Virus record (IMG/VR): IMGVR_UViG_2671180724_000011
DNA: 9,872 nt
From: a virus
Taxonomy: Duplodnaviria; Heunggongvirae; Uroviricota; Caudoviricetes
Strand: one strand, 5' to 3'
Part shown: positions 2,265 to 9,872 of the stretch, piece after piece
Position numbering within the stretch: position 1 is the stretch's first letter
Layout of the letters: each line of letters starts with the position of its first letter
The notes under the pieces: generated by a model
What the model was told of the DNA's origin: nothing
The model's database searches: none
What the model saw: the letters and a program-made list of their open reading frames with translations, nothing else
Program-made: the position numbers and the translations under genes

Positions 2265-2423
2265 ATGGCTAACGCCTGGCTCAGATTATGGCATGACATG
2301 CCAAATGACCCTAAGTGGCGAACAATTGCCAGGGTGTCAGGGCAGCCAATTGCAACAGTGATGGCAGTGTATATCCACGCTCCTGGTGAGCGCGTCACGA
2401 AATGTCACGCGAGGTCACATTGA
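2265..2423 (+). CDS. N-terminal segment of replication initiator / replisome-organizer-like protein (52 codons), out of frame with the downstream ORF
   Basis: ATG at 2265 with GAGGTGAG just upstream; MANAWLRLWHDMPNDPKWRTIARVSGQPIATVMAVYIH resembles N-termini of phage replication-initiator proteins; ends at TGA 2421-2423 inside the first iteron cluster. Confidence 0.5.
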   Translation: MANAWLRLWHDMPNDPKWRTIARVSGQPIATVMAVYIHAPGERVTKCHARSH

Positions 2424-3336
2424 TGTCACGACAGAAGATTTGGCAAGTGCGCTCGACGTGACAGAAGAGGTAATTGATTCAATTTTGCAGACGATGCAGG
2501 GGCGGGTACTTGATGGTGATTTAATCACTGGATGGGAAAAACGCCAGGTGCTTAAAGAGGACAACGGCAATATTTCGCAAACCGCAAAATCTCCGGCAGA
2601 GCGCAAGAGGGCGCAGCGTGAGAGGGAAAGAAAGCGGGAACAAAATGGCGATTGTCACGGCGCGTCACGAAATGTCACGCACATGTCACGACGAGTCACG
2701 ACAGATAAAGATACAGATAGAGATACAGATAAAGAAGATCAAAACACTATGGTCCATGGCGTAAAAAACGCCACGAACCATGTAGGGGATGTTCAGACCG
2801 TCACTCCTGGCCAGCCCGCAGGCACGACACCGGAAGCCGATTCAGCGTATGCGCTGAAAGCCGATTCGGGCGCTGTGCAGCAGGCGATGACCGCTGGGCC
2901 GGAGCAATCACACCAACTGCAGCAGCCTGAAGCCGATTCCGCCATTCAGCGGGAAGCCGATCGGGTAGTCCCGGAAAACACCGGGCAGCCTGTGGGACGA
3001 GTGGATTATCCGGATGTGTTCGAACAGGTCTGGCGGGAATACCCGTTACGAGCCGGGGCAAACCCGAAGAAATCCGCTTTCAGTGCCTGGAAGGCCAGAT
3101 TACGCGAGGGGGTGCCACCAGAGGCCATGCTGGATGGTGTAAGGCGTTACACAAGATACCTGGCTGCTACCGGGAAAACGGGAACGGAATTTGTTCAGCG
3201 AGCGACGACGTTTTTTGGACCGGACCGGAATTTTGAAAACCCCTGGTTGCTCCCGGTAAGCGGCACGAACAACCAGCGTTGTGTTAATCATATTTCTGAA
3301 CCGGACACCGAAATTCCGCCGGGATTCAGAGGGTAA
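2386..3336 (+). CDS. replication initiator protein, main body (316 codons from GTG at 2386; probably continuous with 2265-2423 via a frameshift)
   Basis: Long ORF whose frame is open from 2362; no convincing RBS at the GTG; contains both iteron clusters in the same frame, an Asp-rich hexamer-repeat stretch, and a C-terminal FEQVWREYPLRAGANPKKSAFSAWKARL-type segment seen in phage replication proteins. Confidence 0.65.
   Translation: MSASRNVTRGHIDVTTEDLASALDVTEEVIDSILQTMQGRVLDGDLITGWEKRQVLKEDNGNISQTAKSPAERKRAQRERERKREQNGDCHGASRNVTHMSRRVTTDKDTDRDTDKEDQNTMVHGVKNATNHVGDVQTVTPGQPAGTTPEADSAYALKADSGAVQQAMTAGPEQSHQLQQPEADSAIQREADRVVPENTGQPVGRVDYPDVFEQVWREYPLRAGANPKKSAFSAWKARLREGVPPEAMLDGVRRYTRYLAATGKTGTEFVQRATTFFGPDRNFENPWLLPVSGTNNQRCVNHISEPDTEIPPGFRG
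2394..2430. repeat. iteron cluster 1: four GTCAC(G/A) hexamers at 2394, 2404, 2414, 2425
   Basis: 10-11 bp phasing (one helical turn); about 45 bp near-identical to cluster 2. Confidence 0.7.
2654..2700. repeat. iteron cluster 2: five GTCACG hexamers at 2654, 2664, 2674, 2685, 2695; candidate origin of replication inside the initiator gene
   Basis: 10/10/11/10 bp phasing; immediately followed by AGATAN hexamer repeats; arrangement analogous to lambda ori inside gene O. Confidence 0.7.
2703..2732. repeat. five tandem AGATAN hexamers (AT-rich stretch adjacent to iterons; encodes a DKDTDRDTDK repeat)
   Basis: AGATA at 2703, 2709, 2715, 2721, 2727. Confidence 0.6.
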
Positions 3337-3373: not shown

Positions 3374-3649
3374 GTGGCAAAAGTTTTTACTCCCGAACTG
3401 CGGGAAGAAGTGAAGGCGCGCATTGTGGAACTGGTACGCAGAGATGGGCGAAAAACGCGTAAACAACTGGAAAATGAAACCGGGGCGACGAGACACCTGA
3501 TAGAAGTTCTGGTGAAAGAGCTGGTAGTTAGTGGCGCAGTATATGGTTCAGGACATGGAATATTTCCTTCGGAGCAGGCTCGTAAGGACTGGGGAAAAGC
3601 CCGCAAAAAAAATGTCGAGAGCGGCAGTGAAAAAGAAGAGCGACCCTGA
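3374..3649 (+). CDS. hypothetical protein (91 aa, GTG start), likely the N-terminal part of a gene interrupted at an A8 run
   Basis: AGGAGGG 4 nt upstream of GTG 3374; ORF stops shortly after the A8 homopolymer at 3605-3612. Confidence 0.5.
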   Translation: MAKVFTPELREEVKARIVELVRRDGRKTRKQLENETGATRHLIEVLVKELVVSGAVYGSGHGIFPSEQARKDWGKARKKNVESGSEKEERP

Positions 3650-3782
3650 CCTGATTTATTCATTGCTAGATGGCGAAATACGCCGTTACAACAGACGACA
3701 GAATATAATTTGTCGCGAGTGTCGTCAGAGCGAAGTTATGCAGCGCATACTGGAATTTTATCAGGGAAATGTTCGGTATTAA
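3612..3782 (+). CDS. hypothetical protein, C-terminal part (MSRAAVKKKSDPDLIYSLLDGEIRRYNRRQNIICRECRQSEVMQRILEFYQGNVRY); probably fused to 3374-3649 in an intact allele
   Basis: Other frame is open from 3531 and overlaps the 3374 ORF; removing one A from the A8 run joins the two frames into one ORF of about 136 aa. Confidence 0.4.
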   Translation: MSRAAVKKKSDPDLIYSLLDGEIRRYNRRQNIICRECRQSEVMQRILEFYQGNVRY

Positions 3783-4025: not shown

Positions 4026-6824
4026 ATGTGGGGAAGTGAAAACAAACAAAATCTGGACGTACTGGATCCTGTGCAGTTGGTGCGTATCGAAGCGGTACAC
4101 CGGGGGTTCCTTTACCAGCATCTTTACGCTGTAGGCTGCTTACTTTTGGCGCAGAGGGCAGCTATGGACTCAGTAACTGTCGAGCTTGATGAGGATATTG
4201 AGCTGAAATCCAAACAGGAACGTCTCTACATTCAGGTTAAAACCCGTTCAAAACCTATTATGCCCAACGATGTGTCGGGGGCTCTGGAGCGATTTGTAAA
4301 GCTCAGAAATGAGCATACTTCGGCAAACCGCGAAGGGGTGGCTTCTTTTGTGATTATTGTAAACCAGGCGCCTGGACCGCTGCTTCAGAAGATGATTGAC
4401 GATAAAAAGCTTCCTTCTGATGTTCTTATTGTCTGGCCCCAGTCGACAGCTGGACGTCACCCGGCACTTCCGCCCGCATGGAGTACTCTGGCTGATGCGG
4501 CCACATGGTGTATCGCAGAAGCAGAAAAGCTGAAATTTTCACTATTGTCCCCAGAATCCTTGATTTGGAAGTTAGCAGGATTGGTTCAGCTTGCCGCCAC
4601 CGGAGGCGATACCAATGGACAACATACGTTTTTCACGGAAGAACTTACTGAACTATTTGAACAGTTGATCGTTCAGCTACAGGACTTTCCTGCACCACCA
4701 GCACTGTACCGCCCACAGAACGAAGAACCTTCTCTCACATCTGGTGAGCGGATCCGTATCCTTTGTGGACTCTCAGGTGCAGGCAAGACAGCTTGGGCCG
4801 CACAGGCCGCATTACACTCCACTGCACTTTGTGCTTATTACGACACCGGTGATCTTCCCGGTCCAGCTCTGGCCAGTACGCTGGTGCGCGAGATGGCTGC
4901 TAGATTTACAGCCCGTGACCAAGACGGTTTGCGCAGGATTTTGCTCCCCGGTGCCAGTGGTTTTGAGGCTCTTAGGAGTTTTGATACCTACCTGAAAGAG
5001 CAGGGTACCACCTTGGTGCTGGTTCTGGATAACGCCCATCGTGTACCTGCGGAAAATCTACTGGATGTTCTGAATGCAACTACACATATTCGTTTTGTGC
5101 TGTTGTGCCAGCCTCACGAAAACGTTCGCGAACTGGAGGTCATGACGGGGCTACAGCGCGAGGGCCTGCAGGGATGGAATCTCGATACGGTAGCTGTCGT
5201 TGTAAACGATATCGGAGGATTTGCCACCGCTATGGGATACGAGCAGCTACGGGCTTACACTGGTGGTCTTCCCCTGTATGTAGAGAGCGCCGCAAAAATC
5301 GCCGTTTCTGATTATGAGCGTAATGTCGATGCTCTGTGTGCTGAACTCCAGCAACAAACCCATACTGCGGAAACCGCCCAAGAAATTATTCTGTCACGTG
5401 TATTTCAGGGATTTGAATCACTACTTCAGAGCGCGCTGGCATTGTTCAGTCTCTCTGACGTAGGGCTGAGTCGCGAAGAGATTTCTACGCTCCTAATCAA
5501 TTCGCTGAACATTTCACCAAGCAGTGCTGCTTCTTTAATTAGGAAAATGCGCGCTACTGGCACTATTGAAATTTATGGAAACCAGACCCTGAAGGTACAT
5601 GATGCTGTCAGGGGGCTAGGACTGCAACATCTGGAACTGATGGATCAGGGTATATCGAACAAAGCGCTACTAGCGCTGAAAGACCTTTTAGTTGAAAGTC
5701 TTCATAATACCCGCAATACAAAACGGTTATCGTTGTTGACTCAACTTTATATTAAGCTCAATGATGTCACGACGTTGATCGAACTCTCAGGCCAAGAAAT
5801 GTTTTATGAGATGGGCGTGACGGTCGACATTCTTGCAAGCTTGGAGCGTGCTGCAACATCGGACTTATTGGGACCTGTTCATAAATTCTGGGCATTGGAT
5901 GGCCTTGTTTTCGTTGAGCTTAAAGACGGAATATCCGACCACATTGCTCAGAGGTTAAACATCATGGGAGCTTTACTTGCGGAGCACAAGTTCGGCTATC
6001 AAGAAGAGATGGCCTATGCAATGAAACGAATGTTATTTTCGGCAGAAAGCAATGATGCACGAGAAGTTCAAAAGCTGGCACAGGAAGTCCGCCCCCAACT
6101 CCCAGATGAAGAACATAAACGCATCTTTGACTACAACCATGCCATTGCACTCTGGAGATTAAAAAAACTCAAGGATGCTGAAACATTAAGCTGTAATGTT
6201 ATACAAGGGTACTATTCTTTATTTGGTATCACACCTGCTGATGTCATAGGAAAAAACGCCGACGCATTATGGAAAACTATTAATCATTCCGAAAATATGC
6301 AGGAACACTTTAAACATATGGCTGATGCTCTGGAGTTGCTGGCCAGAATTCGTGATGCGCAGGGAAAACTGTCACCATTACTGCGTATTCATTCGATGAA
6401 GTTCTACAATCTGGCCATGGCCCCGGAATCCATGGTCAGGGTGGGCCAAGATCTGGCGGATGAGTTTGTTGCCATAAAGGATTACGACGGTGCCAAGGAA
6501 GTCATGGAGCAACATGTCCTGCCGGTTGTCAATGAGGCAGGTCTAGTACATCGACTGATTCAGGTTCGAAGCCAATACGCAGTCATATTAGCACTATCGG
6601 GTCAGCATAAAGCAGCTGATGTCGAAATGCAGCGCCTTGCTCCCTATATCGAAGGCCTCACAGGTGTACAGCGTCAAGAAATCCAAAATCAATCAAATTA
6701 CATCGTACAGCTTGCCCATAAAGCAGCAAAGACTAAATTAACTGAAGTTTTTGGTGCGGTCGGCCGGAATGAACAATGCCCCTGTGGCTCGGGAATAAAG
6801 TACAAAAAATGTCACGGTGCCTGA
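4026..6824 (+). CDS. 932-aa multidomain P-loop NTPase: N-terminal restriction-endonuclease-like region, central Walker A/B NTPase (STAND/AAA+-like), helical C-terminal region, terminal SEC-C-type zinc motif; candidate antiphage defense protein
   Basis: ATG 4026 with AAGGA 7 nt upstream; uninterrupted 2799-nt ORF; Walker A GLSGAGKT (aa 248-255, nt 4767-4790); Walker B-like LVLVLDNAH (aa 330-338); N-terminal RGFLYQ...VELDEDIEL...IQVK (aa 26-72); C-terminal CPCGSGIKYKKCHG (nt 6777-6818). Confidence 0.9.
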   Translation: MWGSENKQNLDVLDPVQLVRIEAVHRGFLYQHLYAVGCLLLAQRAAMDSVTVELDEDIELKSKQERLYIQVKTRSKPIMPNDVSGALERFVKLRNEHTSANREGVASFVIIVNQAPGPLLQKMIDDKKLPSDVLIVWPQSTAGRHPALPPAWSTLADAATWCIAEAEKLKFSLLSPESLIWKLAGLVQLAATGGDTNGQHTFFTEELTELFEQLIVQLQDFPAPPALYRPQNEEPSLTSGERIRILCGLSGAGKTAWAAQAALHSTALCAYYDTGDLPGPALASTLVREMAARFTARDQDGLRRILLPGASGFEALRSFDTYLKEQGTTLVLVLDNAHRVPAENLLDVLNATTHIRFVLLCQPHENVRELEVMTGLQREGLQGWNLDTVAVVVNDIGGFATAMGYEQLRAYTGGLPLYVESAAKIAVSDYERNVDALCAELQQQTHTAETAQEIILSRVFQGFESLLQSALALFSLSDVGLSREEISTLLINSLNISPSSAASLIRKMRATGTIEIYGNQTLKVHDAVRGLGLQHLELMDQGISNKALLALKDLLVESLHNTRNTKRLSLLTQLYIKLNDVTTLIELSGQEMFYEMGVTVDILASLERAATSDLLGPVHKFWALDGLVFVELKDGISDHIAQRLNIMGALLAEHKFGYQEEMAYAMKRMLFSAESNDAREVQKLAQEVRPQLPDEEHKRIFDYNHAIALWRLKKLKDAETLSCNVIQGYYSLFGITPADVIGKNADALWKTINHSENMQEHFKHMADALELLARIRDAQGKLSPLLRIHSMKFYNLAMAPESMVRVGQDLADEFVAIKDYDGAKEVMEQHVLPVVNEAGLVHRLIQVRSQYAVILALSGQHKAADVEMQRLAPYIEGLTGVQRQEIQNQSNYIVQLAHKAAKTKLTEVFGAVGRNEQCPCGSGIKYKKCHGA

Positions 6825-7044
6825 GTCTTTGTACGACCATGCGGGCCTTATTGTCTTGCTATTGCTCTTATGGTTCGCCTTTCTGATTGATTTCATATTG
6901 GCGAGGTGACGGGAGTTAAGTAGAATGGCTGCGGGTGCTTGAGGCTATCTGTCTCAGGCATGAACACCAAAGGCAGATAGAGAAAAGCCCCAGTTAACAT
7001 TACGCGTCCTGCAAGACGCTTAACATTAATCTGAGGCTCAATCT

Positions 7045-7257
7045 ATGAACGGCAAATCTAGGTTAGCCTCTTACGTGCCGAAAGGCAAGGAGAAGCAGGC
7101 TATGAAGCAGCAAAAGGCGATGTTAATCGTCCTGATCGTCATCTGTTTAACCGTCATAGTGACGGCACTGGTAACGAGGAAAGACCTCTGCGAGGTACGA
7201 ATCCGAACCGGCCAGACGGAGGTCGCTGTCTTCACAGCTTACGAACCTGAGGAGTAA
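7045..7257 (+). CDS. mok-like in-frame upstream extension of hok (70 aa)
   Basis: ATG 7045 in frame with hok and sharing its stop, as I recall for chromosomal mok/hok pairs such as mokC/hokC. Confidence 0.45.
   Translation: MNGKSRLASYVPKGKEKQAMKQQKAMLIVLIVICLTVIVTALVTRKDLCEVRIRTGQTEVAVFTAYEPEE
7102..7257 (+). CDS. hokD: Hok/Gef-family type I toxin, HokD (RelF)-like, 51 aa
   Basis: MKQQKAMLIVLIVICLTVIVTALVTRKDLCEVRIRTGQTEVAVFTAYEPEE is near-identical to the HokD sequence as I remember it; single transmembrane helix and conserved C-terminal Cys/Tyr segment; stop TAA 7255-7257. Confidence 0.85.
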   Translation: MKQQKAMLIVLIVICLTVIVTALVTRKDLCEVRIRTGQTEVAVFTAYEPEE

Positions 7258-7352: not shown

Positions 7353-7424
7353 CCTGGCATTCTGGTTTACAATTCGCACGCCAGCCTGAACAACTGGCAC
7401 CTGCTGCGCCAGCAGAGACAACCG

Positions 7425-7703
7425 ATGGCGCACGATACCAAATTACACAATTCTAATGATTCTGCTGTCTTTGCCAGCAGGTGCGGACGGCGTTTTCACG
7501 CATTCACATCAGACTGGTTCCAGCATCCTCCATGCACTGAAGAGCAGGCTGAATGGATAATTCAGTGTTACCGCAGGCGTGGATACGAGGTTAAGAAAGC
7601 TCTTAGTCTCGACTATCGTCACTGGATAATCTCAGTCAGACTCCCTTACTCCGAACGCCCACCGCGTCCGTCCCGCACATTCCAGCAACGCATCTGGAGG
7701 TAA
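7425..7703 (+). CDS. small prophage protein, copy 1 (92 aa), in the rem position downstream of hokD
   Basis: ATG 7425; the track's longer 7296 start would run through the hok terminator; C-terminal 70 aa nearly identical to copies 2 and 3, N-terminal 24 aa diverged. Confidence 0.65.
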   Translation: MAHDTKLHNSNDSAVFASRCGRRFHAFTSDWFQHPPCTEEQAEWIIQCYRRRGYEVKKALSLDYRHWIISVRLPYSERPPRPSRTFQQRIWR

Positions 7704-7704
7704 C

Positions 7705-8076
7705 GTGCGGGTATTACTTCGACCTGTTCTGGTACCGGAACTCGGGCTGGTGATCGTTAAGCCGGGCCGTGAATCCATGCCGGTATTCCACAATACCCGG
7801 GTACTGGTGGAGCCGGAACCGAAAAGCATGCGTAATCTGCCGTCCGGGGTCGTTCCTGCCGTTCGCCAGCCGCTGGTGGAAGACAAAACATTGCTGCCGT
7901 TTTTCAGTAACGCACGGGTGATTCGTGCTGCTGGTGGTGCTGGTGCATTGTCTGACTGGCTGTTGCGCCATATTAAATCCTGCCAGTGGCCACACGGCGA
8001 TTATCATCACAGCGAAACCGTCATTCACCGTTATGGTACCGGCGCAATGGTGTTGTGCTGGCACTGCGACAACCAG
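7705..8076 (+). CDS. GTG-start protein, copy 1, truncated by an N-run; possibly DUF968/YdfU-like
   Basis: GGAGG then TAA stop of the upstream gene then GTG 7705 (coupled); Cys/His-rich segment HIKSCQWPHGDYHH...CWHCDNQ; ORF runs into Ns at 8077. Confidence 0.55.
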
Positions 8077-8087: not shown

Positions 8088-8182
8088 CAGGCTTTTCAGC
8101 TTTTGCAGAAGAATAAACTCATCTACAATCTTGCGCGGGGCTGAACTCCCGCTGAGTAACACCGTGCCACCGGAGAAAACCG

Positions 8183-8461
8183 ATGGCACGCAACGTAAAA
8201 TATTACAATTCTGATAATTCGCCCGTTCTTGCCTGCACGCACGAGCGGTATTCTCACGCATTCAAGTCTGAATGGTTCCAACACCCTCCATGTACTGAAG
8301 AGCAGGCTGAATGGATAATTCAGTGTTACCGCAGGCGCGGATACGAGGTTAAGAAAGCCCTTAGTCTCGACTACCGTCACTGGATAATCTCCGTCAGGCT
8401 TCCTTACTCTGAACGCCCACCGCGTCCGTCTCGCACATTCCAGCAACGCATCTGGAGGTAA
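8183..8461 (+). CDS. small prophage protein, copy 2 (92 aa)
   Basis: ATG 8183 with GGAG 7 nt upstream; identical in protein sequence to copy 3 over its full length. Confidence 0.7.
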   Translation: MARNVKYYNSDNSPVLACTHERYSHAFKSEWFQHPPCTEEQAEWIIQCYRRRGYEVKKALSLDYRHWIISVRLPYSERPPRPSRTFQQRIWR

Positions 8462-8462
8462 C

Positions 8463-9076
8463 GTGCGGGTATTACTTCGACCTGTTCTGGTACCGGAACT
8501 CGGGCTGGTGATCGTTAAGCCGGGCCGTGAATCCATGCCGGTATTCCACAATACCCGGGTACTGGTGGAGCCGGAACCGAAAAGCATGCGTAATCTGCCG
8601 TCCGGGGTCGTTCCTGCCGTTCGCCAGCCGCTGGTGGAAGACAAAACATTGCTGCCGTTTTTCAGTAACGCACGGGTAATTCGTGCTGCTGGTGGTGCTG
8701 GTGCATTGTCTGACTGGCTGTTGTGCCATATTAAATCCTGCCAGTGGCCACACGGCGATTATCATCACAGCGAAACCGTCATTCACCGTTATGGTACCGG
8801 CGCAATGGTGTTGTGCTGGCACTGCGACAACCAGCTGCGTGACCAGACATCCGAATCACTCGGGCAACTTGCTCATCAAAACCTGTCAGCATGGATGATT
8901 GACGTCATCGGTCACGCAATAAGCGGTACGCAGGAGCGTGAATTATCTTTGGCTGAATTATCCTGGTGGGCGGTCCGCAATCAGGTGGCGGACGCGCTAC
9001 CGGAAGCGGTATTACGTCGTTCGCTGGGGTTGCGTGCGGAAAAAATCCGCTCAATGTACCGTGAAAGCGACATCGT
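8463..9076 (+). CDS. GTG-start protein, copy 2, truncated by an N-run after about 204 codons; possibly DUF968/YdfU-like
   Basis: Same coupled GTG start; extends about 80 codons beyond the point where copy 1 is cut; runs into Ns at 9077. Confidence 0.6.
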
Positions 9077-9087: not shown

Positions 9088-9182
9088 CAGGCTTTTCAGC
9101 TTTTGCAGAAGAATAAACTCATCTACAATCTTGCGCGGGGCTGAACTCCCGCTGAGTAACACCGTGCCACCGGAGAAAACCG

Positions 9183-9461
9183 ATGGCACGCAACGTAAAA
9201 TATTACAATTCTGATAATTCGCCCGTTCTTGCCTGCACGCACGAGCGGTATTCTCACGCATTCAAGTCTGAATGGTTCCAACACCCTCCATGTACTGAAG
9301 AGCAGGCTGAATGGATAATTCAGTGTTACCGCAGGCGCGGATACGAGGTTAAGAAAGCCCTTAGTCTCGACTACCGTCACTGGATAATCTCCGTCAGGCT
9401 TCCTTACTCTGAACGCCCACCGCGTCCGTCTCGCACATTCCAGCAACGCATCTGGAGGTAA
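9183..9461 (+). CDS. small prophage protein, copy 3 (92 aa)
   Basis: Exactly 1000 bp downstream of copy 2; identical protein sequence. Confidence 0.7.
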   Translation: MARNVKYYNSDNSPVLACTHERYSHAFKSEWFQHPPCTEEQAEWIIQCYRRRGYEVKKALSLDYRHWIISVRLPYSERPPRPSRTFQQRIWR

Positions 9462-9462
9462 C

Positions 9463-9872
9463 GTGCGGGTATTACTTCGACCTGTTCTGGTACCGGAACT
9501 CGGGCTGGTGATCGTTAAGCCGGGCCGTGAATCCATGCCAGTATTCCACAATACCCGGGTATTGATGGAGCCGGAACCGAAAAGCATGCGTAATCTGCCG
9601 TCCGGGGTCGTTCCTGCCGTTCGCCAGCCGCTGGAGGAAGACAAAACATTGCTGCCGTTTTTCAGTAACGCACGGGTGATTCGTGCTGCTGGTGGTGCTG
9701 GTGCATTGTCTGACTGGCTGTTGCGCCATATTAAATCCTGCCAGTGGCCACACGGCGATTATCATCACAGCGAAACCGTCATTCACCGTTATGGTACCGG
9801 CGCAATGGTGTTGTGCTGGCACTGCGACAACCAGTTGCGTGACCAGACCTCCGAATCACTCGAGCAACTTGC
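9463..9872 (+). CDS. GTG-start protein, copy 3, partial (runs off the window end); possibly DUF968/YdfU-like
   Basis: GTG 9463 with the same coupled context; no stop before the window end, so absent from the ORF track; a handful of substitutions relative to copy 2. Confidence 0.6.
   Translation, partial: MRVLLRPVLVPELGLVIVKPGRESMPVFHNTRVLMEPEPKSMRNLPSGVVPAVRQPLEEDKTLLPFFSNARVIRAAGGAGALSDWLLRHIKSCQWPHGDYHHSETVIHRYGTGAMVLCWHCDNQLRDQTSESLEQL

What the first reader, a model, noticed from the sequence alone, without database searches (positions are those of the whole stretch)
2394..2732. Helically phased GTCACG iterons in two clusters inside the replication gene: probable ori
Four (2394-2430) and five (2654-2700) GTCAC(G/A) hexamers recur at 10-11 bp intervals, so they sit on one face of the helix. 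The two clusters are about 45 bp near-identical and about 260 bp apart, and the second is followed by AGATAN hexamer repeats. This is the architecture of an initiator-bound origin embedded in its own gene, as with lambda ori in O. The duplication is notable, and both clusters are read in the same protein frame (ASRNVT...VTT).
Basis: partly seen in the sequence, partly recalled or inferred. Interest (0 to 1): 0.5.

Follow-up and report, generated by a model that had tools for sequence, protein, structure and literature searches.

The report
Two-part replication origin inside initiator gene
Two groups of a six-base motif, one copy per turn of the DNA helix, plus an adjacent A+T-rich stretch sit inside a prophage replication-initiator gene and are conserved as DNA, not as protein code, across distantly related bacteria, so this is very probably the phage's replication origin: a familiar design, here in an unstudied, widespread initiator family.

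Summary
GTCAC(G/A) occurs at 2394, 2404, 2414, 2425 and at 2654, 2664, 2674, 2685, 2695. An inverted copy lies at 2457-2462, and ACAGATAAAGAT x3 at 2701-2735. "Near-identical 45 bp" is overstated: 21 nt are exact and 31 of 45 match.

The host gene (2265-3336) is a lambdoid-prophage replication initiator. In this window an extra G at 2379 frameshifts it.

In 21 relatives (locus GC 0.34-0.69) the codons under the hexamers never vary synonymously. Equally invariant residues elsewhere use 3-6 codons. The 30 nt after cluster 2 are always A+T- and purine-rich.

More distant relatives carry a different unit (CGAACGC, GTAACG, AACGC, GTGACGC) at the same two sites, and each gene uses one unit in both clusters. 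The initiator is the only gene shared by all 22 GTCAC loci. Lambda-P-like or DnaB-like genes often follow it.

Cluster 2 and the AT tract fall in a predicted disordered linker. Cluster 1 falls in a loop of a winged-helix-like N-domain.

The origin reading is supported by comparison only. Binding and origin firing are untested. I rate it a new variant of a known kind: lambda O/ori and SPP1 G38P/oriL logic, without detectable homology to either.

The parts
2265..3336 (+). Replication-initiator gene, 356 aa once the extra base is removed. It has a winged-helix-like N-domain, a disordered linker and a C-terminal domain. In this window it is frameshifted.
   Evidence: phrog_3729 'replication initiation protein', E 5.5e-253, 1-356/356. 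96-97% identical to intact genes of phages Tritos, Evi and vB_EcoS-640R1. AlphaFold on a relative identical through about aa 155 gives helices 3-14, 16-25, 29-45, 56-63 and 67-77 plus a wing, with aa 130-161 disordered.
2379..2379 (+). Extra G that frameshifts the initiator gene 15 nt upstream of cluster 1.
   Evidence: Alignment to phage Tritos. The closest genome, NZ_CP148579, lacks it. It is absent from all 1,728 complete E. coli genomes carrying the segment.
2394..2430 (+). Cluster 1: four GTCAC(G/A) units at 2394, 2404, 2414 and 2425 (spacing 10, 10, 11). It encodes aa 43-55, the end of helix 29-45 and the loop before the helix-turn-helix.
   Evidence: Units sit at the same gene offsets (128, 138, 148, 159) in most of 22 relatives. 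Synonymous entropy is 0 at V47, T48, G50, H51 and V54, and 0.28 bit at S44 and T55.
2457..2462 (-). Inverted copy of the unit (GTCACG on the minus strand), 32 nt after the last unit of cluster 1.
   Evidence: GTGAC is at the same offset (192, or 180 where the match starts at residue 5) in 17 of 22 relatives. Val65 is always GTG wherever it is valine.
2654..2700 (+). Cluster 2: five GTCACG units at 2654, 2664, 2674, 2685 and 2695 (spacing 10, 10, 11, 10). It encodes aa 130-145 of the disordered linker.
   Evidence: Three to five units are present at the equivalent place in all 22 GTCAC-type relatives. pLDDT is below 50 for aa 130-161.
2701..2748 (+). A+T-rich, purine-rich tract (ACAGATAAAGAT x3, then AGATCAAAACACT). 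Proposed DNA-unwinding element. It encodes DKDTDRDTDKEDQNT.
   Evidence: This is the GC minimum of the gene, 0.30 at 2700-2739. In 22 relatives the 30 nt after the last unit have GC 0.17-0.37 and purine 0.67-0.87, at locus GC 0.34-0.69. Codon counts there are GAT 77 to GAC 4 and AAA 65 to AAG 11, against 213:240 and 154:166 elsewhere.
2749..2781 (.). Imperfect inverted repeat (14-nt arms, 5-nt loop) directly after the AT tract. It may belong to the origin. Weak evidence.
   Evidence: DNA hairpin of -9.5 kcal/mol, z = -3.0. Relatives mostly have some inverted repeat of different sequence at this place, but only 8 of 23 reach z < -2 and the mean z is -1.8.
3259..3333 (+). Last 25 codons of the initiator (...NHISEPDTEIPPGFRG). 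They resemble the extreme C-terminus of host primosomal protein DnaT and are a candidate host-recruitment peptide.
   Evidence: PDB DnaT chains 6aep, 2ru8 and 9zbt, E 0.016-0.057, aligned end to end. NCBIfam PRK02854 positions 156-179 of 179. The same tail ends relatives with other C-domains.

Best explanation
The two hexamer arrays and the adjacent A+T-rich tract form the replication origin of a lambdoid prophage, embedded in the gene of its own initiator.

Proposed mechanism:
- The initiator's winged-helix-like N-terminal domain binds one GTCACG unit per helical turn. Three to five protomers therefore line up on one face of the DNA at cluster 2 (2654-2700).
- This array strains the neighbouring (A)GATAAAGAT tract (2701-2748) until it opens.
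- The C-terminal domain then brings in the host helicase. In relatives this would go through a lambda-P-like loader or a phage DnaB-type helicase encoded next door. In this phage, which has neither, it may go through its DnaT-like C-terminal tail.
- Cluster 1 (2394-2430, plus the inverted unit at 2457-2462), 260-270 bp upstream, is a second, accessory array. It could pair with cluster 2 by looping, or sequester initiator to limit firing or read-through.

Shown here:
- The units, their spacing and the AT tract are conserved as DNA, independently of the protein code.
- The unit co-varies between the two clusters.
- The initiator is the only protein always linked to them.

Inferred: binding by the initiator, melting of the tract, helicase recruitment, and the role of cluster 1.

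In this particular window the initiator gene carries a frameshift. If that base is real, the origin could fire only with initiator supplied in trans.
For: 1. Positions and phasing. Across relatives, 120 of 126 neighbour spacings below 30 nt for GTCAC are 10 or 11. For AACGC-type units the figure is 75 of 80.

2. DNA-level constraint. In 21 genes from loci of GC 0.34-0.69, the codons under the hexamers are fixed: S44 TCA 95%, V47 GTC 100%, T48 ACG 100%, G50 GGT 100%, H51 CAC 100%, V54 GTC 100%, T55 ACG 95%, V65 GTG 100%.
- Invariant residues elsewhere (R7, L8, P13, R19, T20, R23, P28, V32, R80, V81, R93) use 4-6 codons, at 1.8-2.3 bits.
- R49, whose third base lies in a spacer, is free at 1.76 bits.
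- Serine inside hexamers is TCA in 52 of 52 cases, against 52 of 363 elsewhere.
- Within a cluster the units fall in all three reading frames.

3. AT tract. GC is 0.17-0.37 in every relative. GAT and AAA are strongly preferred there only. In L009, L025 and L004 the AGATAAG motif is kept but read as other amino acids.

4. Co-variation. Other sub-families carry CGAACGC, GTAACG, (T/A)AACGC or GTGACGC at the same two gene positions. Each gene has the same unit in both clusters. Different unit types occur in the same host genus. Two examples are Pseudomonas (L009, L025 against L032) and Serratia (L007, L013 against L045). This argues against a host factor as the binder.

5. Linkage. The initiator is the only ORF family present in all 22 GTCAC loci within +/-3 kb. 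The next most common family is in 10 of 22.

6. Replication-module context. The gene is phrog_3729 'replication initiation protein'. It follows genes in the cI-like position, cro-like (YdaS) and cII-position (YdaT). Downstream genes in relatives are Phage_lambda_P (E 5e-16 and 3e-10) or Toprim/DnaB_C helicases.

7. Protein anatomy. Cluster 2 and the AT tract lie in a disordered linker (pLDDT below 50, aa 130-161) between a confident N-domain and a C-domain. Lambda O likewise has a flexible linker between its two domains, and ori-lambda lies in the middle of O (PMC6022878, PMC7466680).

8. Extra amino acids track extra units. A 7-aa loop insert (21 nt) in E. albertii and O157-type relatives adds two hexamers. 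Stx-phage O proteins likewise have 13 extra residues alongside two extra iterons (PMC7466680).

9. Module boundary. E. coli relatives share either the part up to window 2723 or the part from 2741 onwards, so the N and C modules are exchanged at the origin.
Against: - There is no experimental evidence of initiator binding, strand opening or origin activity for any member of this family. Nothing was found in the searchable literature.
- The N-domain has no significant match to a characterised origin-binding protein. Phage_rep_org_N is below cut-off. hhalign finds nothing against lambda O or SPP1 G38P. Foldseek gives only generic winged-helix hits at E >= 0.49.
- The distance between the two clusters is not conserved in helical phase. 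From the positions it ranges over 249-339 nt, which does not favour a rigid looped complex.
- The residues that would set hexamer specificity were not identified.
- A few relatives lack cluster 1, so it is dispensable for whatever the core function is.
- The initiator gene in this window is frameshifted.
Confidence: 0.8

Rival explanations
1. The arrays are initiator-binding sites used for control rather than for initiation. They would act as an autoregulatory roadblock or operator inside the gene, or as titration or handcuffing sites, while the true origin lies elsewhere in the phage.
For: Cluster 1 has no adjacent AT-rich tract (GC 0.45-0.60 over 2380-2459). It is missing in some relatives. 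Iteron-mediated control is established for plasmid origins (general knowledge; cited in PMC2647930). SPP1 G38P also binds a second site, oriR, that is not the early origin (PMC5737612, PMC3485210).
Against: Cluster 2 is invariably joined to an A+T- and purine-rich tract that is itself under DNA-level selection. That is the classic iteron-plus-unwinding-element signature. No other cluster of the unit exists in the window or in 13-15 kb of close relatives. This rival is plausible for cluster 1 alone and is compatible with the main explanation.
Confidence: 0.1
2. The sites are bound by another phage regulator. One candidate is the cII-position YdaT-like protein encoded just upstream, which might recognise 10-bp-spaced direct repeats to drive an antisense or internal promoter. 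Another is a host DNA-binding protein.
For: From memory, lambda CII recognises direct tetramer repeats spaced 10 bp apart, at sites that lie inside coding sequence. A weak minus-strand promoter-like match overlaps cluster 2 at 2678-2651, with 9 of 12 positions.
Against: No ORF family other than the initiator is shared by the 22 loci carrying identical hexamers; the best is 10 of 22. Unit type differs between prophages of the same host genus. The region has 3 promoter-like hits against 2.0 expected by chance. There is no DnaA-box enrichment.
Confidence: 0.05
3. The similarity is only a by-product. It could be an internal duplication of a peptide motif (ASRNVT...VTT) needed at the protein level. 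Or it could be conserved DNA kept as a homologous-recombination joint for swapping N- and C-terminal modules.
For: Both clusters are read in the same frame over the shared 21-nt core. SRNVT-type peptides are invariant in the protein alignment. In E. coli relatives the N/C module breakpoint falls at 2723-2741, right after cluster 2.
Against: Synonymous sites under the hexamers are frozen, while invariant residues elsewhere vary freely. Units occupy all three frames and encode S-R, V-T, G-H or C-H. The 10-11 bp phasing is strict. The AT motif is kept even when it is read as different amino acids. A recombination joint would not need helical phasing, or conservation from Entomomonas (GC 0.34) to Pseudothauera (GC 0.69).
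Confidence: 0.03

Closest known systems
Bacteriophage lambda O protein and ori-lambda, including Stx-phage variants with six iterons
   Same: The origin lies inside the initiator gene, as repeated initiator sites followed by an A+T-rich tract. The initiator has an N-terminal DNA-binding part, a flexible linker and a C-terminal recruitment part. A P-type loader gene follows in many relatives. Extra iterons go with extra amino acids. The operon position after cro and cII is the same (PMC7466680; PMC6022878).
   Different: No detectable sequence similarity to O, and no Pfam Phage_rep_O hit. Lambda has one group of four 18-bp inverted-repeat iterons about 20-24 bp apart, each bound by a dimer (PMC6022878). 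Here the unit is a 6-7-bp direct repeat, one per helical turn, in two groups 260-270 bp apart. The first group lies inside the DNA-binding-domain coding region. This phage has no P gene; DUF977 follows.
Bacillus phage SPP1 replisome organizer G38P and oriL
   Same: oriL is embedded in gene 38. It consists of repeats (AB boxes) bound by G38P plus an adjacent AT-rich unwinding element. G38P also binds a second, separate repeat region (PMC5737612). NCBI names close relatives of the window protein 'phage replisome organizer'. A weak full-length alignment to Phage_rep_org_N exists (5-122 against 1-118 of 121).
   Different: The Pfam and TIGRFAM scores are far below cut-off (12.8 against 23.3 bits; 15.5 against 49.8 bits). 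None of 66 relatives reaches E 0.01. hhalign against G38P finds nothing. SPP1's second site, oriR, lies elsewhere in the genome rather than in the same gene.
Satellite phage P4 alpha protein with ori and crr (recalled from memory, not tested here)
   Same: A bipartite cis element: two separated groups of a short direct repeat (an octamer in P4), both bound by the initiator and both contributing to replication.
   Different: In P4 the two groups are kilobases apart and lie outside the initiator's DNA-binding-domain coding sequence. Alpha is a primase-helicase unrelated to this protein. None of this was checked with the tools.
Iteron origins of theta plasmids (RepA and pi type)
   Same: Directly repeated initiator sites next to an AT-rich tract. 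A possible control role for additional iteron groups (general knowledge; PMC2647930 for the definition).
   Different: Plasmid iterons are about 20 bp and intergenic. Here the conserved unit is 6-7 bp at a 10-11-bp period and lies inside coding sequence.

Membership tests
Origin embedded in the initiator gene (lambda O / ori-lambda type, a functional class) | Repeated candidate initiator sites inside the initiator's own reading frame | tested here: met
   Nine GTCAC(G/A) units in two arrays lie inside the 2265-3336 gene. They sit at the same offsets in 22 relatives.
Origin embedded in the initiator gene (lambda O / ori-lambda type, a functional class) | Repeats are constrained as DNA, beyond what the protein needs | tested here: met
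   Synonymous entropy is 0-0.28 bit at hexamer codons, against 1.5-2.5 bits at other invariant residues. Spacer codon R49 is free. Observed GTCAC count is 10, against 2.5 +/- 1.4 under synonymous resampling.
Origin embedded in the initiator gene (lambda O / ori-lambda type, a functional class) | A+T-rich unwinding tract directly beside the repeats | tested here: met
   GC is 0.30 at 2700-2739. GC is 0.17-0.37 in all 22 relatives whatever the host GC, with a local GAT and AAA codon bias.
Origin embedded in the initiator gene (lambda O / ori-lambda type, a functional class) | Origin lies in the linker between the DNA-binding and recruitment domains | tested here: met
   Cluster 2 and the AT tract correspond to aa 130-161, where pLDDT is below 50. 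Cluster 1 does not fit this: it lies within the N-domain (aa 43-55).
Origin embedded in the initiator gene (lambda O / ori-lambda type, a functional class) | Initiator binds the repeats, and the segment fires as an origin | not testable with these tools
   This needs EMSA or footprinting and a plasmid-replication or marker-frequency assay. No published data were found.
Lambda O protein family (Pfam Phage_rep_O) with lambda-type iterons | Sequence homology to lambda O | tested here: not met
   No Pfam hit. hhalign of the family profile against lambda O gives probability 0.04%.
Lambda O protein family (Pfam Phage_rep_O) with lambda-type iterons | Iterons are roughly 18-bp inverted repeats, each bound by a dimer, in a single group | tested here: not met
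   Lambda iterons are 18 bp, at 39034-39118, spaced 20-24 bp apart (PMC6022878). Here the unit is a 6-bp direct repeat at 10-11 bp, in two groups.
Lambda O protein family (Pfam Phage_rep_O) with lambda-type iterons | P-type helicase-loader gene immediately downstream | tested here: not met
   In the window the next gene is DUF977. In relatives the next gene is Phage_lambda_P in representatives of clusters covering 8 + 4 of 22 loci, or a DnaB-type helicase.
Phage replisome organizer, N-terminal domain (Pfam PF09681 / TIGR01714; SPP1 G38P) | Score above the curated family cut-off | tested here: not met
   PF09681 scores 12.8 bits against a cut-off of 23.3. TIGR01714 scores 15.5 bits against 49.8. 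None of 66 relatives reaches E <= 0.01. hhalign against G38P finds nothing.
Phage replisome organizer, N-terminal domain (Pfam PF09681 / TIGR01714; SPP1 G38P) | Winged-helix N-domain whose gene contains its own repeats plus an unwinding element | tested here: inconclusive
   The repeats and AT tract are present. The model is winged-helix-like, but Foldseek gives only non-significant generic hits (E >= 0.49).
Primosomal protein DnaT | Full-length similarity to DnaT (NCBIfam PRK02854 cut-off 201 bits) | tested here: not met
   18.2 bits, covering only the last 24 residues. PDB DnaT chains match residues 292-316 of the 316-aa ORF at E 0.016-0.057. The shared element is a C-terminal peptide, so this is not family membership.

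The most novel reading that the evidence does not exclude
The iteron arrays and the initiator's specificity determinant may be the same nucleotides.

Between iteron classes, the otherwise highly conserved N-domain differs most clearly in three places. Two are the stretches encoded by the iterons themselves: the loop at aa 44-55 (SRNVTRGH... against SNATERGRTQ...) and the linker peptide. The third is the basic segment after the wing.

If the iteron-encoded loop helps read the hexamer, then binding site and reader would be written in one overlapping stretch of DNA. They would change together, which would explain how this family switched origin specificity at least five times while keeping the same two-array layout.
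Probability: 0.1. Interest if true: 0.8.

Novelty: new variant of a known kind. Interest (0 to 1): 0.5.

Why it matters
- Reach. The segment around cluster 1 is present in 1,728 of 5,426 complete E. coli genomes. The initiator family extends across gamma-, beta- and alpha-proteobacteria, with hits also in MAG contigs labelled Acidobacteriota and Planctomycetota. Its origin has apparently never been described.
- A practical marker. The signature is precise and portable: two arrays of a 6-7-bp unit at a 10-11-bp period, the second followed by (GATAAA)n. It could be used to locate origins in thousands of prophages. It also explains why the SRNVT and DKDKD peptides look 'conserved' in a disordered linker.
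- Overlapping codes. This is an unusually clean natural case. DNA-binding-site selection freezes synonymous sites and dictates amino acids across a GC range of 0.34-0.69.
- Specificity switching. Five iteron classes on one protein scaffold give a ready-made system for studying how initiator and origin specificity co-evolve.
- Annotation. The frameshift in this window and the split gene calls in some phage records show that the gene is easily mis-called.

Tried and rejected
- Pfam on the two ORF fragments as they stand in the window gave nothing, because the frameshift splits the domain.
- Homology to known origin binders was not found: lambda O, SPP1 G38P, and Pfam/NCBIfam replisome-organizer models below cut-off. 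Foldseek against the PDB gave only generic MarR, ArsR and CAP-type winged-helix hits at E >= 0.49. I therefore do not file the protein in any characterised family.
- DnaA boxes: no perfect TTWTNCACA. One-mismatch hits are at the chance level, 19 against 17.6.
- Promoter and terminator scan: hits are near the chance level. The minus-strand 'terminator' is the 2749-2781 inverted repeat.
- Rfam: the only hit in the window is sok at 6933-7107, and nothing lies at the finding. I dropped an RNA-structure reading.
- A fixed helical phase between the two clusters would have supported a rigid loop. It is not there: distances from the positions range over 249-339 nt with no common remainder.
- A conserved hairpin after the AT tract is suggestive but weak (mean z -1.8; 8 of 23 below -2). 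I list it as a possible part only.
- Specificity-determining residues were sought by comparing iteron classes, without a decisive result.
- Literature searches for oriJ/Rac, iterons with replisome organizer, GTCACG iterons, and lambdoid iterons found nothing on this family.
Full report
**1. The observation**

The + strand carries GTCAC(G/A) at 2394, 2404, 2414 and 2425, and again at 2654, 2664, 2674, 2685 and 2695. Spacings are 10 or 11 nt throughout. One inverted copy lies at 2457-2462. Tandem Repeats Finder reports a period-10 array at 2653-2703 and ACAGATAAAGAT x2.9 at 2701-2735.

The two clusters share an exact 21-nt core, GCGCGTCACGAAATGTCACGC, at an offset of 270 nt. Only 31 of 45 positions match, so "near-identical" is too strong. 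Within a cluster the hexamers fall in all three reading frames and encode S-R, V-T, G-H or C-H.

If the codons of the (repaired) gene are redrawn synonymously, GTCAC is expected 2.5 +/- 1.4 times, with a maximum of 8 in 20,000 draws. It occurs 10 times. There is no further cluster of the unit in the window or in 13-15 kb of two close relatives.

**2. The gene and its state**

The surrounding gene (2265-3336) is 96-97% identical to intact 1,071-nt genes of the E. coli phage records Tritos, Evi and vB_EcoS-640R1. It matches PHROG 3729, "replication initiation protein", end to end (E 5.5e-253).

It lies in a lambdoid early-right operon. The order is a divergent ORF in the cI position, a YdaS/Cro-like gene, a YdaT-like gene in the cII position, this gene, DUF977, and a large SEC-C/AAA/Cap4-nuclease protein.

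In the window an extra G at 2379 shifts the frame 15 nt before cluster 1. This is why the ORF finder reports two ORFs, 2259-2423 and 2386-3336. None of the 1,728 complete E. coli genomes holding this 91-nt segment has that base. The closest genome also has a frameshifted integrase and a frameshifted DUF977 gene. The element therefore looks like a decaying prophage, although a sequencing error cannot be excluded.

**3. Comparative test of a DNA-level function**

The N-terminal 165 residues have 936 detected relatives at E <= 0.001. A scan of one genome per species returned 57 loci. They come from gamma-, beta- and alpha-proteobacteria, plus a few MAG contigs labelled Acidobacteriota and Planctomycetota, with locus GC of 0.33-0.69.

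In 22 of these loci GTCAC sits at essentially the same gene offsets: 128, 138, 148, 159, then about 388, 398, 408 and sometimes 418. An inverted copy usually lies at 192.

Synonymous variation in 21 of these genes gives the key result.
- The hexamer codons are fixed: S44 TCA 95%, V47 GTC, T48 ACG, G50 GGT, H51 CAC and V54 GTC all 100%, T55 ACG 95%. V65 is GTG in 100% of cases, and this codon is the inverted copy.
- Equally invariant residues elsewhere (R7, L8, P13, R19, T20, R23, P28, V32, R80, V81, R93) use four to six codons, at 1.8-2.3 bits.
- R49, whose third base falls in a spacer between two hexamers, is free at 1.76 bits.
- Because synonymous sites elsewhere are saturated, shared ancestry cannot explain the frozen codons.

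The 30 nt after the last unit of cluster 2 always read (A)GATAAAGATAAAGA-like. GC is 0.17-0.37 and purine content 0.67-0.87, even in a locus of 0.69 GC. Locally GAT outnumbers GAC 77 to 4, and AAA outnumbers AAG 65 to 11, against 213:240 and 154:166 in the rest of the genes. In three loci the motif is kept but read as different amino acids.

**4. Co-variation and linkage**

More distant family members have no GTCAC. They carry a different unit at the same two positions and with the same 10-nt period:
- CGAACGC in about 15 loci;
- GTAACG in L022, L024 and L033;
- (T/A)AACGC in L031, L042 and L050;
- GTGACGC in L054.

In each gene both clusters use the same unit, and cluster 2 again ends in CCAGATAAAGAT-like sequence. 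L037 has no cluster 1 and carries seven or more units in cluster 2; L028, L030 and L044 also show no phased cluster 1. L045 and L055 have a GIY-YIG-like insertion instead of cluster 2. The two-array layout is therefore ancestral. Cluster 2 plus the AT tract is the constant core.

Within +/-3 kb, the only ORF family common to all 22 GTCAC loci is the initiator itself. The next most frequent is in 10 of 22.

In relatives the gene just downstream is lambda-P-like (Pfam PF06992, E 5e-16 and 3e-10 for representatives of clusters covering 8 + 4 loci) or a Toprim/DnaB-type helicase. The protein thus occupies the "O" slot of O-P-type replication modules.

**5. Protein anatomy**

An AlphaFold model was built from 66 aligned sequences, for a relative identical to the window protein through about residue 155. 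It shows a confident helical, winged-helix-like N-domain (residues 3-95, pLDDT about 90), a basic helix at 110-127, a disordered stretch at 130-161 (pLDDT below 50), and a helical C-domain.
- Cluster 1 encodes residues 43-55: the end of helix 29-45 and the loop before the helix-turn-helix.
- Cluster 2 and the AT tract encode the disordered linker.

A 7-residue loop insert (21 nt, two repeat periods) in E. albertii and O157-type relatives adds two hexamers to cluster 1. Stx-phage O proteins show the same kind of link, with 13 extra residues alongside two extra iterons (PMC7466680).

In E. coli, relatives share either the part up to window 2723 (with a DnaT-like C-domain) or the part from 2741 onwards (Stx-type phages). 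The N and C modules are therefore exchanged exactly at the putative origin.

**6. Most likely mechanism**

I propose four steps.
1. N-domains bind one unit per helical turn on one face of the DNA.
2. The array at cluster 2 stresses and opens the adjacent GATAAA tract.
3. The C-domain recruits the helicase.
4. Cluster 1 is an accessory array, used for looping, cooperative loading or control.

What is shown is the DNA-level selection on units, spacing and AT tract, the co-variation, and the exclusive linkage to the initiator. Binding, melting and recruitment are inferred by analogy with two systems:
- Lambda: four iterons plus a 39-bp high-AT region in the middle of O, an N-terminal DNA-binding domain, a flexible linker, a C-terminal P-binding domain, and O-some torsional stress (PMC6022878, PMC7466680; coordinates).
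- SPP1: oriL embedded in gene 38, with AB boxes bound by G38P plus an AT-rich unwinding element (PMC5737612).

**7. Comparison with known systems**

The element works like lambda O/ori and SPP1 G38P/oriL, but membership in those protein families is not supported.
- There is no Pfam Phage_rep_O hit, and hhalign against lambda O gives nothing.
- Phage_rep_org_N and TIGR01714 score far below cut-off (12.8 against 23.3 bits; 15.5 against 49.8 bits). None of 66 relatives reaches E 0.01, and hhalign against G38P gives nothing.
- Foldseek finds only generic winged-helix regulators at E >= 0.49.

The iterons also differ from lambda's. They are 6-7-bp direct units at a 10-11-bp period, in two groups, one of them inside the DNA-binding-domain coding sequence. 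Lambda has a single group of four 18-bp inverted repeats.

I found no paper describing the origin of this family. The phage collection holds it in only 25 of 50,697 records, none a classical model phage.

**8. Rivals**

- A purely regulatory role (roadblock, titration or handcuffing) is plausible for cluster 1. It does not account for the selected AT tract at cluster 2.
- Another phage regulator or a host factor is disfavoured by the linkage and same-genus results. Promoter-like and DnaA-box hits are also at chance level.
- A protein-level repeat or a mere recombination joint is contradicted by the frozen synonymous sites, the three-frame usage and the strict phasing.
- No Rfam family matches the site.

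**9. Verdict**

This is a new variant of a known kind: a bipartite, hexamer-per-turn origin inside the initiator gene of an uncharacterised but very widespread initiator family.

Interest is moderate at 0.5. The principle is classical. The comparative signal is unusually clean, the family is common in E. coli, and the five iteron classes on one scaffold make specificity evolution directly testable.

The most novel reading still open is that the iteron-encoded loop is itself part of the hexamer-reading surface, so that site and reader share nucleotides. I give that about 10%.

Noticed in passing
window 3259-3333 (last 25 codons of the initiator): The C-terminal peptide ...NHISEPDTEIPPGFRG aligns end to end with the extreme C-terminus of E. 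coli primosomal protein DnaT (PDB 6aep, 2ru8, 9zbt, E 0.016-0.057; NCBIfam PRK02854 positions 156-179 of 179). Relatives with unrelated C-domains end in the same ...PD..IP.GFRG tail. This phage has no P-like or DnaC-like gene, so the tail may connect the initiator to the host PriA/PriB/DnaT-DnaC pathway.
   Followed up: partly
window 2379: A single extra G frameshifts the initiator gene. It is absent from phage Tritos, from the closest genome NZ_CP148579 and from all 1,728 complete E. coli genomes carrying the segment. It is either a private inactivating mutation or a sequencing error, and it is not in a homopolymer run.
   Followed up: yes
window 7408-8076, 8166-9076 and 9166-9872: Three tandem, diverged copies (93-99% identical) of a segment holding a 92-aa ORF and the start of a DUF968 gene. 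The segment is single-copy in the closest genome (L059 12208-13118). Copies 2 and 3 are offset by exactly 1000 nt, which suggests an amplification or an assembly artefact.
   Followed up: partly
window 3374-3782: The DUF977 (LygF-like) gene after the initiator is split into two overlapping ORFs in different frames (3374-3649 and 3531-3782). It is annotated as frameshifted in the closest genome, as is the integrase there. This fits a decaying prophage.
   Followed up: partly
window 2749-2781: An inverted repeat (14-nt arms, 5-nt loop; DNA hairpin -9.5 kcal/mol, z -3.0) lies directly after the AT tract. Many relatives have an inverted repeat of different, often G+C-rich, sequence at the same place, but the signal is weak overall (mean z -1.8; 8 of 23 below -2).
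   Followed up: partly
window 4026-6824: A 932-aa ORF combines a Cap4-type dsDNA nuclease domain, an AAA ATPase and a C-terminal SEC-C motif. It looks like an anti-phage defence gene inserted in the prophage early region. Phage Tritos has a different gene at this position.
   Followed up: no
window 6933-7107: An Rfam sok antitoxin RNA (110 bits, E 6e-25), part of the hokD/sok type I toxin-antitoxin locus annotated in the closest genome.
   Followed up: no
L045 (Serratia MAG) and L055 (Pantoea), initiator gene after about residue 105: These two relatives have a GIY-YIG-like segment (YVYYV...GISRNPWAR) where other members have cluster 2 and the AT tract. It may be a homing-endonuclease-type insertion at the origin.
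   Followed up: no
E. coli genomes and phages, relative to window 2723-2741: The N-terminal module (up to 2723) and the C-terminal module (from 2741) of the initiator gene occur separately, joined to other partners. One partner is a DnaT-like C-domain, and others are Stx-type phages POCJ13 and 75/02. The mosaic joint therefore coincides with the putative origin.
   Followed up: partly
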